64,000 nt of DNA from the IMG/VR virus record IMGVR_UViG_3300027969_000058, positions 1 through 64,000 of that record; one strand, given 5' to 3'. Below the pieces are notes generated by a model, which was not told where the DNA came from, did not search any database, and saw only the letters and a program-made list of their open reading frames with translations. The DNA comes from a virus. Positions within the stretch are counted from its first letter, which is position 1, and each line of letters opens with the position of its first letter. Of the stretch, positions 34,135 through 34,556 are shown one piece after another. A program made the translations under genes and the position numbers.

Positions 34135-34520
34135 GTTGTTTATTTTACAAGGTAAGTCCTACCCCGGAGTTGCAGTTTCTTAGGCTGCTAATTCAAAACC
34201 TTCGTTATTGCTTGCGAAAACATTAACGTTGGTTTCAAAATACTCGAATGTATTTGCTGTTGCATTTACTTTGATTTGCTTGATTTAGAGTCATCGCCTA
34301 CTCAGTTGCCGTCTCTAACTATTTGCCCAATCGATTACCAGAGCAGGCCCAACTAAGTAGTCTCGCACCAACTGGTGGATATAGCGAGAATCGACCTCGC
34401 ATTTTATAGATTCGGAATCCATCTGTCCTACTTGGACGATATACCCGACACTACTTAGGTGGACCTGGCGAGATTCGAACTCGCGTCTTGAACACATCCT
34501 TTTTGAAGGGATTACAACTA
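34135..34520 (-). ncRNA. ssrA: Two-piece (permuted) tmRNA
   Basis: T-arm/acceptor 3' half (CAGGTCC-ACC, 34458-34467) precedes the 5' half GGGCCTG (34350); G3:U70; tag ATANTFEYFETNVNVFASNNEGFELAA* at 34180-34263. Confidence 0.88.
34373..34446 (-). tRNA. tRNA with CCG anticodon and Ala-type acceptor, nested in the tmRNA intervening segment
   Basis: GGGTATA/TATATCC-ACCA; ATGGA-TTCCGAA-TCTAT. Confidence 0.75.
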
Positions 34521-34527
34521 TACGCTT

Positions 34528-34556
34528 ATTATAGCGCATTGTATTTAGCGTGTCAA
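34528..34556 (-). promoter_or_regulatory. sigma70 promoter of tmRNA
   Basis: TTGACA-17-TATAAT. Confidence 0.88.

What the first reader, a model, noticed from the sequence alone, without database searches (positions are those of the whole stretch)
34135..34556. Permuted two-piece tmRNA with a whole tRNA nested in its intervening segment
Seen, in order: promoter, acceptor piece (ends CAGGTCC-A-CC, last A not encoded), intervening segment closed by CTAAGTAGT/ACTACTTAG, coding piece, terminator. The intervening loop contains a 74-nt tRNA with its own CCA. Established: two-piece tmRNAs occur in alphaproteobacteria and some cyano- and betaproteobacteria, normally with a short disposable linker. I know no example with a nested tRNA but cannot verify that.
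Basis: partly seen in the sequence, partly recalled or inferred. Interest (0 to 1): 0.82.

Follow-up and report, generated by a model that had tools for sequence, protein, structure and literature searches.

The report
tRNA riding inside phage two-piece tmRNA
A large uncultured phage carries its own rearranged "two-piece" ribosome-rescue RNA (tmRNA) gene, and the spacer that is normally cut out and thrown away holds a complete, selected tRNA gene; this nesting has been published only once, and this tRNA also mixes arginine and alanine features.

Summary
ARAGORN and Rfam call a permuted tmRNA on the minus strand (34549-34089; RF04321 96.4 bits, RF01850 96.3 bits). A 74-nt tRNA with anticodon CCG (34446-34373; RF00005 45.5 bits) lies in its 107-nt intervening segment. 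One consensus sigma-70 promoter and one terminator flank the unit.

It is not an artefact. The same tRNA sits in the same slot in 12 other independent contigs, in two tmRNA lineages. A homologue stands alone in a third phage group. Seven of 21 cloverleaf pairs show two-sided changes, and the anticodon never changes.

Among 55 distinct spacers of this tmRNA family, 7 hold the tRNA. The rest hold unrelated hairpins or Shine-Dalgarno-led mini-ORFs. Near-identical loci carry different spacers, so the spacer is an exchangeable cargo slot.

Most likely reading: tRNA-processing enzymes release three RNAs from one transcript. This is inferred, not shown.

Open puzzles are a conserved alanine-type acceptor (G3·U70, A73) on an arginine-type body, no CGG codon demand, and a tmRNA CCA missing its last A only when the tRNA is present.

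One paper (PMC11915505) reports one nested tRNA-Ala, calling it unique. Earlier notes of this scan report similar nestings in other phages; I did not verify them.

The parts
34528..34556 (-). Sigma-70 promoter TTGACA-17 nt-TATAAT; it starts directly after the stop codon of the upstream gene (34558-35199)
   Evidence: 12 of 12 consensus positions. The predicted start lies about 7 nt downstream, which coincides with position 1 of the Rfam tmRNA_permuted model at 34519.
34458..34519 (-). tmRNA acceptor piece: 3' half of the tRNA-like domain, with T arm GCGAG-UUCGAAU-CUCGC and acceptor 3' strand CAGGUCC-A-CC. The next base is T, so the final A of CCA is not encoded
   Evidence: An identical 30-mer occurs in 8 IMG/VR contigs.
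34351..34457 (-). Intervening segment of 107 nt: 5' closing strand, tRNA, 8-nt trailer, 3' closing strand, then UU
34447..34458 (-). 5' strand of the 12-bp closing helix (C of ACC plus UAAGUAGUGUC); it abuts G1 of the tRNA
   Evidence: MFE fold. Relatives keep the pairing through G-U and two-sided changes.
34373..34446 (-). Nested tRNA of 74 nt: anticodon CCG, encoded CCA, acceptor G1-C72, G2-C71, G3.U70, A73, D loop AAGUA, T loop GUCGAUU
   Evidence: ARAGORN. Rfam 45.5 bits. Covariation in 9 variants. Acceptor comparison with the other 32 tRNAs of the record.
34365..34372 (-). tRNA 3' trailer GUUGGUGC; its GGUG can pair with the tRNA's own CACC(A) end (hairpin CACC-AGUU-GGUG)
   Evidence: MFE. 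An equivalent complement is present in all 8 nested variants and absent after the stand-alone homologue.
34353..34364 (-). 3' strand of the closing helix (GAGACUACUUAG), followed by UU before the coding piece
34107..34350 (-). tmRNA coding piece: 5' acceptor strand GGGCCUG (forms G3.U70 with the acceptor piece), tag reading frame 34263-34180 (27 codons ending LAA, stop TAA), 3' domain, and intrinsic terminator hairpin 34133-34114 with a U run

Best explanation
This is a phage-encoded, beta-type permuted ssrA gene whose intervening segment has been occupied by a real tRNA gene with anticodon CCG. One sigma-70 promoter drives a single precursor in the order acceptor piece, closing helix with tRNA, coding piece, terminator.

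Proposed maturation (inferred):
- RNase P cuts 5' of the tRNA's G1 and 5' of the coding piece's G1. Both sites sit at the base of an acceptor-type helix stacked on a T arm.
- 3' exonucleases trim the 11-nt tail left on the acceptor piece and the 22-nt tail after the tRNA's CCA.
- A CCA-adding enzyme restores the missing last A of the tmRNA.
- RNase III may cut first in the roughly 21-bp composite helix.
- The products are the two base-paired tmRNA pieces and a free tRNA.

The spacer has to be transcribed and excised anyway, so it acts as free space for cargo. Related phages fill it with unrelated hairpins, small ORFs or this tRNA, and exchange these cassettes by recombination in the conserved tmRNA flanks.

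Shown by sequence: the anatomy, its conservation, selection on the tRNA fold and anticodon, and cassette exchange. Inferred: the order of processing, the enzymes involved, and charging of the tRNA (probably arginine, possibly also alanine).
For: - Gene calls: ARAGORN calls the permuted tmRNA with a nested tRNA. Rfam gives RF04321 96.4 bits, RF01850 96.3 bits and RF00005 45.5 bits.
- Single unit: one consensus promoter and one terminator enclose it, with no strong internal promoter or minus-strand terminator (only a weak 9-of-12 promoter-like match inside the tRNA).
- House style: all 33 tRNAs of the record, including the nested one, encode CCA.
- Recurrence: the same tRNA lies in the same slot in L003/L006/L047/L086, L004/L104, L017/L018, L094, L108 and L113. 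In L123 it lies inside a different permuted tmRNA with another acceptor stem and the tag ANDSQFALAA.
- Stand-alone copy: a homologue scoring 60.8 bits in Rfam occurs in 8 contigs.
- Selection on the fold: 97.9% of cells are paired, 7 of 21 pairs change on both sides, and 0 of 500 shuffles reach this. The anticodon CCG is invariant although the anticodon stem is fully rebuilt in L123.
- Predicted structure: the MFE fold of the precursor gives the tmRNA acceptor stem, the closing helix and the cloverleaf, z -4.8.
- Cargo slot: there are 55 distinct spacers, of which 7 hold the tRNA, about 12 hold SD-led ORFs and the rest hold hairpins. L003 and L008 are 95% and 94% identical in their flanks but have unrelated spacers.
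Against: - There are no RNA data, so the three products and their ends are not shown.
- The tRNA's elbow is non-canonical: the D loop lacks GG, and the T loop has G54 or U56.
- The L003 lineage has two mismatches in the anticodon stem.
- ARAGORN misses the L004 and L094 variants.
- CGG is the rarest Arg codon, 2-3% of Arg codons, and is no more frequent in tRNA-bearing phages, so there is no obvious decoding demand.
- The trailer can tie up the tRNA's CCA end, which would hinder rather than help RNase P.
- No SmpB and no CCA-adding enzyme are found in the 114.7-kb record, which is about 33% complete.
Confidence: 0.7

Rival explanations
1. The tRNA-shaped insert is a processing (punctuation) element rather than a decoder. 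Its acceptor and T-arm stack recruits RNase P and other tRNA enzymes so that the two tmRNA pieces are separated cleanly, and the released RNA has no further role.
For: - The elbow is non-canonical and the L003 lineage has anticodon-stem mismatches.
- There is no codon demand for CGG.
- In two pattern surveys, more than 19 unrelated phage permuted tmRNAs carry only a T-arm-like hairpin next to the 3' strand of the closing helix, i.e. a tRNA top-half mimic without an anticodon arm.
Against: - The anticodon CCG and the 7-nt loop format are invariant in 9 variants, although the stem beneath is rebuilt by compensatory changes.
- The same tRNA exists as a stand-alone gene in a tRNA cluster, where it has nothing to punctuate.
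- It encodes its own CCA.
- Most relatives mature their tmRNA with plain hairpins.
Confidence: 0.13
2. The insert is a hybrid-identity tRNA. It reads the arginine codon CGG but is charged wholly or partly with alanine by AlaRS through G3.U70. It is delivered together with the alanine-charged tmRNA. The effect would be Ala-for-Arg mistranslation of CGG-rich (host) messages, while the CGG-poor phage is largely spared. Alternatively it could serve a non-ribosomal use of Ala-tRNA.
For: - G1-C72, G2-C71, G3.U70 and A73 are invariant in 9 of 9 variants, while the neighbouring 4:69 pair is U-A, A-U or G-C.
- Among the 33 tRNAs of the record only tRNA-Ala shares this set.
- Among 1089 distinct phage tRNAs in the fetched loci, the full set is otherwise almost confined to tRNA-Ala.
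- The window type lacks the AAUGGA(U/A)A D loop with A20 that the three bona fide tRNA-Arg genes of the phage have.
- The phage uses CGG in only 24-32 codons.
- That G3.U70 is the main AlaRS determinant and that AlaRS ignores the anticodon is established knowledge (Hou and Schimmel 1988; McClain and Foss 1988), cited here from my own knowledge.
Against: - C35 and G36 are ArgRS determinants and are invariant.
- The D arm of the L003 and L120 types is that of the family's tRNA-Arg(CCU/UCG) minus one G, and may keep A20.
- CGG sites of the phage align with Arg codons in relatives (R in 9 of 16 alignments, A in 2, both low-identity), so there is no recoding signal.
- G3.U70 alone occurs sporadically in other non-Ala phage tRNAs.
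- Charging cannot be read from sequence.
Confidence: 0.15
3. The arrangement is an assembly artefact or a chance tRNA-like sequence.
For: The window comes from a metagenome-derived viral contig.
Against: - The arrangement is found in 13 distinct contigs under many different metagenome and IMG/VR project numbers.
- The cloverleaf shows compensatory changes.
- Rfam E-values range from 3.5e-9 to 2.5e-13.
Confidence: 0.01

Closest known systems
Circularly permuted (two-piece) tmRNA genes of Alpha- and Betaproteobacteria and cyanobacteria (Keiler et al. 2000; Sharkady and Williams 2004; Rfam RF01849-RF01851, RF04321)
   Same: The gene order is acceptor piece, intervening segment, coding piece. It has a tRNA-like domain with G3.U70 and A73, a tag frame that starts with Ala and ends LAA, and scores above both the RF04321 and RF01850 cut-offs.
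   Different: It is phage-borne, and no match to its 5' motif was found among 185,579 species-representative genomes beyond two chance hits in coding DNA. The tag is long (27 codons). The final A of CCA is not encoded. The spacer carries a functional-looking gene instead of a disposable loop.
Permuted tmRNA GCA-2688965__sp002688965.2 with an intact tRNA-Ala in its intervening sequence (PMC11915505, 2025; described as a unique feature among 11,946 permuted sequences)
   Same: A complete, high-scoring tRNA gene lies between the two tmRNA pieces on the same strand.
   Different: That case is a single MAG contig with an Ala tRNA and no relatives described. Here the tRNA has anticodon CCG, is conserved in 13 contigs and two tmRNA lineages, and also has a stand-alone copy. 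I could not obtain the published sequence to compare it.
Phage-encoded two-piece tmRNAs of aquatic myophages (OM43 phage Melnitz, pelagimyophages; PMC9004378)
   Same: A large aquatic phage carries its own permuted ssrA next to tRNA genes, with an extra RNA element embedded in the gene (there, a glutamine riboswitch in the 3' domain).
   Different: Those are alpha-type tmRNAs, and the extra element is regulatory and lies outside the spacer. No nested tRNA is reported in that paper.
Spacer tRNAs of bacterial rRNA operons and the phage T4 tRNA cluster (polycistronic stable-RNA precursors)
   Same: It works like these: a tRNA lies between two pieces of another stable RNA, is enclosed by a long processing helix, and is freed by RNase P plus 3' trimming.
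   Different: Here the two flanking pieces belong to one RNA that reassembles by base pairing, and the slot is variable cargo rather than a fixed operon member.

Membership tests
Permuted (two-piece) tmRNA, Rfam RF04321 / RF01850 | Covariance-model score at or above the curated gathering score | tested here: met
   RF04321 scores 96.4 bits against a cut-off of 47, and RF01850 scores 96.3 bits against 84. The same hit is found in the whole record.
Permuted (two-piece) tmRNA, Rfam RF04321 / RF01850 | Gene order with the 3' tRNA-like half first, then the intervening segment, then the 5' tRNA-like half with the tag frame, all on one strand | tested here: met
   ARAGORN calls tmRNA*. This agrees with reading the sequence and with the single promoter and terminator.
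Permuted (two-piece) tmRNA, Rfam RF04321 / RF01850 | Alanine-type acceptor stem (G3.U70, A73) formed between the two pieces, a T arm, and a 3' ACC(A) | tested here: met
   GGGCCUG pairs with CAGGUCC, followed by A and CC. The final A is not encoded; PMC11915505 (Fig. 1 legend) states that the CCA position is not always encoded.
Permuted (two-piece) tmRNA, Rfam RF04321 / RF01850 | Tag reading frame with an Ala resume codon and a hydrophobic C-terminus | tested here: met
   The frame starts with GCA at 34263, has 27 codons ending ELAA, and stops with TAA. Relatives keep the frame with variant tags.
Permuted (two-piece) tmRNA, Rfam RF04321 / RF01850 | SmpB partner available | tested here: inconclusive
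   No PF01668 match in the 114.7-kb record, which is about 33% complete. The host is unknown.
Permuted (two-piece) tmRNA, Rfam RF04321 / RF01850 | Precursor is cleaved into two RNAs that stay base-paired | not testable with these tools
   This needs RNA end mapping.
tRNA (Rfam RF00005) | Covariance-model score above the gathering score, and a cloverleaf supported by covariation | tested here: met
   Scores are 45.5, 48.7 and 60.8 bits for three lineages against a cut-off of 29. Seven of 21 pairs change on both sides and 97.9% of cells are paired.
tRNA (Rfam RF00005) | Canonical elbow (G18 G19 in the D loop, U54 U55 C56 in the T loop); this is typical rather than strictly defining | tested here: not met
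   The window type has D loop AAGUA and T loop GUCGAUU. The L003 type has AAUGACA and UUUGAUU.
tRNA-Arg (isoacceptor CCG) | Anticodon with C35 and G36 | tested here: met
   CCG is invariant in 9 variants.
tRNA-Arg (isoacceptor CCG) | A20 in the D loop (major ArgRS determinant; from my own knowledge) | tested here: inconclusive
   The three other tRNA-Arg genes of the phage have AAUGGA(U/A)A. The nested tRNA has AAGUA. The L003 and L120 types have AAUGA(C/U)A, i.e. the Arg loop minus one G.
tRNA-Arg (isoacceptor CCG) | Absence of determinants for another synthetase | tested here: not met
   G3.U70 with G1-C72, G2-C71 and A73 is present in 9 of 9 variants.
Alanine-accepting tRNA | G3.U70 with A73 and G2-C71 | tested here: met
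Alanine-accepting tRNA | Alanine anticodon (NGC) | tested here: not met
   The anticodon is CCG.
Permuted tmRNA with a tRNA in the intervening sequence (single case in PMC11915505) | [quoted passage not shown] | tested here: met
   The tRNA at 34446-34373 lies inside the spacer at 34457-34351.

The most novel reading that the evidence does not exclude
The spacer of phage two-piece tmRNA genes is a general, exchangeable expression slot serviced by the cell's tRNA-processing enzymes. In this lineage it delivers, together with the alanine-charged rescue RNA, a deliberately hybrid tRNA: arginine anticodon CCG on an alanine acceptor. That tRNA would insert alanine at CGG, a codon the phage almost never uses but GC-richer hosts use often. 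This would amount to a phage-encoded selective mistranslation or translation-takeover device coupled to trans-translation.
Probability: 0.1. Interest if true: 0.88.

Novelty: new variant of a known kind. Interest (0 to 1): 0.6.

Why it matters
**Literature.** The tmRNA literature treats the intervening segment of permuted genes as disposable, and the largest survey lists one nested tRNA as a curiosity.

**What this adds.** Here the nesting is heritable and selected. It has moved between tmRNA lineages and between a stand-alone and a nested position.

**Cargo slot.** It is one of several cargo types, along with hairpins and small protein genes, that near-identical phages swap in the same slot. 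That turns a 'throw-away' stretch of a stable RNA into a place where phages express extra genes at no regulatory cost.

**Test system.** It also gives a compact natural system of about 450 bp for asking how RNase P, 3' exonucleases and the CCA-adding enzyme sort three RNAs out of one precursor.

**Hybrid identity.** The conserved alanine-type acceptor on an arginine-type tRNA is a directly testable candidate for a natural dual-identity tRNA.

Tried and rejected
- **Phage GenBank collection.** BLASTN of the 501-nt unit against it found no match.
- **Representative genomes.** A scan of 185,579 species-representative genomes with the coding-piece motif gave only two chance hits in protein-coding DNA, in an Alcanivoracaceae MAG and in Lentilactobacillus. 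This gave no host clue and no link to the published MAG case.
- **Published tRNA-Ala case.** Its sequence is not in the supplements held.
- **Second copy in relatives.** BLAST for a second copy of the tRNA in four larger tRNA-less relatives (G001-G004) found nothing. This is a weak test.
- **CGG meaning from solved structures.** Reading the meaning of CGG from PDB alignments of the phage ketoacyl synthase failed because both CGG sites fall in unconserved columns. I replaced this with tblastn against relatives.
- **Origin of the tRNA.** Nearest-neighbour search among 1089 phage tRNAs gave no clear parent, with best matches of 70-73% to several isotypes.
- **Spacer mini-proteins.** A PHROGs search of seven of them gave no family.
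- **Generic IMG/VR surveys.** Two pattern surveys for other complete tRNAs between tmRNA halves found T-arm-like modules but no further complete nested tRNA. The patterns require canonical T loops and fixed distances, so this is not a census.
- **CGG-to-Ala recoding in the phage's own genes.** I considered this and found no support.

Full report
**1. The observation**

All elements lie on the minus strand. ARAGORN calls a permuted tmRNA at 34549-34089, with tag ATANTFEYFETNVNVFASNNEGFELAA*, and a tRNA with anticodon CCG at 34446-34373 inside it.

Rfam supports both calls:
- tmRNA_permuted RF04321: 96.4 bits against a gathering score of 47.
- beta_tmRNA RF01850: 96.3 bits against 84.
- The nested tRNA is hidden by clan competition in the whole-window scan. 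Scanned alone it reaches 45.5 bits on RF00005 against a cut-off of 29, E 3.5e-9.

Reading the strand gives this order:
- TTGACA-17-TATAAT promoter, 34556-34528, 12 of 12 consensus positions.
- Acceptor piece, about 34519-34458, ending CAGGUCC-A-CC and followed by U rather than A.
- A 12-bp closing helix that abuts G1 of the tRNA.
- The tRNA with its own CCA.
- An 8-nt trailer, the 3' strand of the helix, then UU.
- The coding piece from GGGCCUG at 34350, with the tag frame at 34263-34180.
- A terminator hairpin at 34133-34114 with a U run.

The MFE fold of the precursor reproduces the tmRNA acceptor stem, the closing helix and the cloverleaf, with z -4.8. The only flaw is that its coordinates stop short of the terminator.

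**2. Context**

The window is the first 64 kb of a 114,735-base IMG/VR virus record estimated to be 33% complete. GC content is 40%. Ninety of 100 long ORFs lie on the minus strand.

The record holds 33 tRNA genes covering all 20 amino acids, and all of them encode CCA. The tmRNA acceptor piece is the only tRNA-like 3' end in the record that lacks the encoded final A.

No SmpB and no CCA-adding enzyme are found in the available third of the genome.

The upstream genes are a solute-binding protein, a dicarboxylate/amino-acid symporter, an Asp/Glu racemase and a GATase-like protein. A ketoacyl synthase lies downstream.

**3. Relatives**

An exact 30-mer of the acceptor piece and a 20-23-mer of the coding piece recovered about 110 loci from IMG/VR and JGI metagenomes. 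One record name, TBL_comb48_EPIDRAFT, suggests a bog lake; that is my reading of the name.

The motif is absent from 185,579 species-representative genomes except for two chance hits in coding DNA.

For 102 loci both tmRNA pieces could be delimited. They carry 55 distinct intervening segments, which fall into three groups:
- **tRNA-bearing:** seven distinct segments hold the CCG tRNA. They are the window; L004/L104; L113; L094; L017/L018/L109; L003/L006/L047/L066/L086; and L108. After removing IMG/VR and JGI duplicates these are 12 distinct contigs.
- **ORF-bearing:** about a dozen segments of 90-210 nt start with ATAAGGA(A/G), a spacer and then ATG. They hold an ORF of 21-62 codons that ends at or within about 12 nt of the 3' end of the segment. 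L050 and L106 differ at 15 synonymous and 11 non-synonymous codons with the frame intact. None matches a PHROG family.
- **Hairpins:** the remaining segments are unrelated hairpins of 60-110 nt.

L003 (tRNA) and L008 (hairpin) are 95% and 94% identical over 300 nt upstream and 600 nt downstream, yet their spacers are unrelated. In a rough tree of the tmRNA cores the cargo types are interleaved. The spacer is therefore an exchangeable cassette site.

**4. The tRNA travels**

A scan with the 3' half of the tRNA found two further contexts.
- **L123:** the same tRNA lies nested in a different permuted tmRNA. That tmRNA has acceptor stem GGGGGUG/CACCUCC and tag ANDSQFALAA.
- **Stand-alone copy:** in eight contigs (L120, L121, L125, L127, L129, L130, L131, L133) a homologous tRNA stands alone just downstream of a tRNA-Pro gene (about 50 nt). 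It lies 2.7 kb from a tmRNA of the L123 type whose spacer has no tRNA. ARAGORN misses this copy, but Rfam scores it at 60.8 bits.

**5. Selection on the tRNA**

I aligned nine variants (A2) and counted the cloverleaf pairs.
- 97.9% of cells are paired.
- 7 of 21 pairs change on both sides.
- 0 of 500 shuffles reach the observed covariation.
- Slid controls pair at 35-52%.

The anticodon stem is ATGGA/TCTAT in the window and GCAAA/TTTGT in L123. The anticodon CCG never changes.

Two weaknesses remain. The L003 lineage has C.A and U.U mismatches in the anticodon stem, although it still scores 48.7 bits. The D and T loops are non-canonical in all lineages.

**6. Identity puzzle**

G1-C72, G2-C71, G3.U70 and A73, the AlaRS determinant set (established knowledge, cited from my own knowledge), are invariant in 9 of 9 variants. 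The adjacent 4:69 pair is U-A, A-U or G-C.
- Among the record's 33 tRNAs only tRNA-Ala(UGC) shares this set.
- Among 1089 distinct tRNAs in all fetched loci, the set is nearly confined to tRNA-Ala.
- However, the D arm of the L003 and L120 types matches the tRNA-Arg(CCU/UCG) genes of related phages minus one G. C35 and G36 are ArgRS determinants.

By descent the tRNA therefore looks like arginine. Whether it is also alanylated cannot be read from sequence.

CGG is the rarest Arg codon in the phage, at 24 of 1125 Arg codons. It is no more frequent in tRNA-bearing contigs (0-3.4%) than in others (0-8.4%).

At CGG sites of the phage, homologues in relatives have Arg codons in 9 of 16 alignments, Lys or Gln in 4, Ala in 2 low-identity ones, and Trp in 1. 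There is thus no sign that CGG means Ala in this phage. There is also no codon demand that explains the tRNA.

**7. Two further regularities without an explanation**

- All eight nested variants follow the tmRNA's ACC with T. All 48 tRNA-less spacers follow it with A.
- In all eight nested variants the 3' trailer contains TGGTG, TGGTGG or TGG, which can pair with the tRNA's own (C)ACCA end. The stand-alone copy has no such trailer.

**8. How it most likely works**

Shown:
- One transcription unit.
- A selected tRNA fold and anticodon.
- A conserved helix that brings the tmRNA acceptor strands together.

Inferred:
- RNase P cuts 5' of the tRNA and 5' of the coding piece.
- Exonucleases trim the two 3' tails.
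- A CCA-adding enzyme completes the tmRNA.
- RNase III may open the roughly 21-bp composite helix first.

The tRNA then joins the phage's near-complete tRNA set. The rivals are scored in the Rival explanations section: a pure processing element, an alanine-charged hybrid, and an artefact.

**9. Comparison with what is known**

- Permuted tmRNAs in phages are known (PMC9004378).
- The 2025 tmRNA database paper reports one permuted tmRNA with an intact tRNA-Ala in the intervening sequence, out of 11,946 permuted sequences, and calls it unique (PMC11915505).
- I found no other paper on this arrangement.
- Two pattern surveys of IMG/VR found more than 19 unrelated permuted phage tmRNAs whose spacer holds a T-arm-like hairpin next to the closing helix. 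They found no further complete tRNA.
- Earlier notes of this scan report nested Tyr, Asn, Asp and Trp tRNAs, T-arm passengers and small protein genes in the spacers of other phage tmRNAs.
- The ORF and T-arm cargo I saw independently here. The other nested tRNAs I did not verify.
- A separate note on this same genome had already flagged the chimeric identity. I reached that point independently, and I tested its conservation.

**10. Verdict**

Mechanistically it is a natural extension of known stable-RNA processing rather than a new principle.

I class it as a new variant of a known kind. The added value is the cargo-slot behaviour and the candidate dual-identity tRNA. Interest 0.6.

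Noticed in passing
L021:8259-8405(-), L032:6656-6823(+), L050:3801-3983(+), L106:6132-6314(+), L051:1059-1196(+), L035:1722-1862(-), L067:563-742(-), L103:3264-3422(+): In about a dozen relatives the tmRNA spacer starts with a Shine-Dalgarno-like AAGGA inside the 5' closing strand. It holds an ORF of 21-62 codons whose stop lies in or just before the 3' closing strand. L050 and L106 differ by 15 synonymous and 11 non-synonymous codons. None matches a PHROG family.
   Followed up: partly
L172, L174, L182, L200, L206, L209, L232, L282, L285, L286 (spacers of unrelated permuted phage tmRNAs): Many other phage two-piece tmRNA spacers contain one or two T-arm-like hairpins (GGTTCGAATCC type) directly next to the 3' strand of the closing helix. 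This forms a tRNA top-half mimic without an anticodon arm.
   Followed up: partly
L127:6544-7009, L129:5526-5991, L130:3312-3777, L133:5196-5661: A tRNA-Trp(CCA) gene ends inside the ARAGORN-called start of a permuted tmRNA, so tRNA and tmRNA are probably co-transcribed head to tail. The same contigs hold the stand-alone CCG tRNA, which ARAGORN does not call.
   Followed up: partly
L134: about 3575-3660 (+): An RNA of about 85 nt looks like a tmRNA tRNA-like domain alone (GGGGAUA...UUCGACAGG...T arm...UAUCUCCACCA) with no tag frame. It sits in a tRNA cluster of a 125-kb phage contig and recalls the CDS-less form of mycobacteriophage DS6A mentioned in PMC11915505.
   Followed up: no
L220 (tRNA called Val, anticodon AAC): This is another phage tRNA with a full alanine-type acceptor (GGGCGAU/AUCGUCC, A73) but a non-alanine anticodon.
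   Followed up: no
window 34457 and the equivalent position in all relatives: The base after the tmRNA's ACC is T in all 8 tRNA-bearing spacers and A in all 48 tRNA-less spacers.
   Followed up: partly
window 34558-38827 and 31277-32428 (-): Host-like metabolic genes flank the tmRNA. Upstream lie a family-3 solute-binding protein, a sodium:dicarboxylate symporter family protein, an Asp/Glu racemase and a GATase/BPL_N-like protein. A beta-ketoacyl synthase lies downstream (Pfam).
   Followed up: no
window 28217-28308 (-): A 92-nt tRNA with anticodon UAU (Ile by anticodon) and a long variable arm. Similar 91-92-nt Ile(UAU) genes occur in L127, L129, L130, L133 and L134.
   Followed up: no
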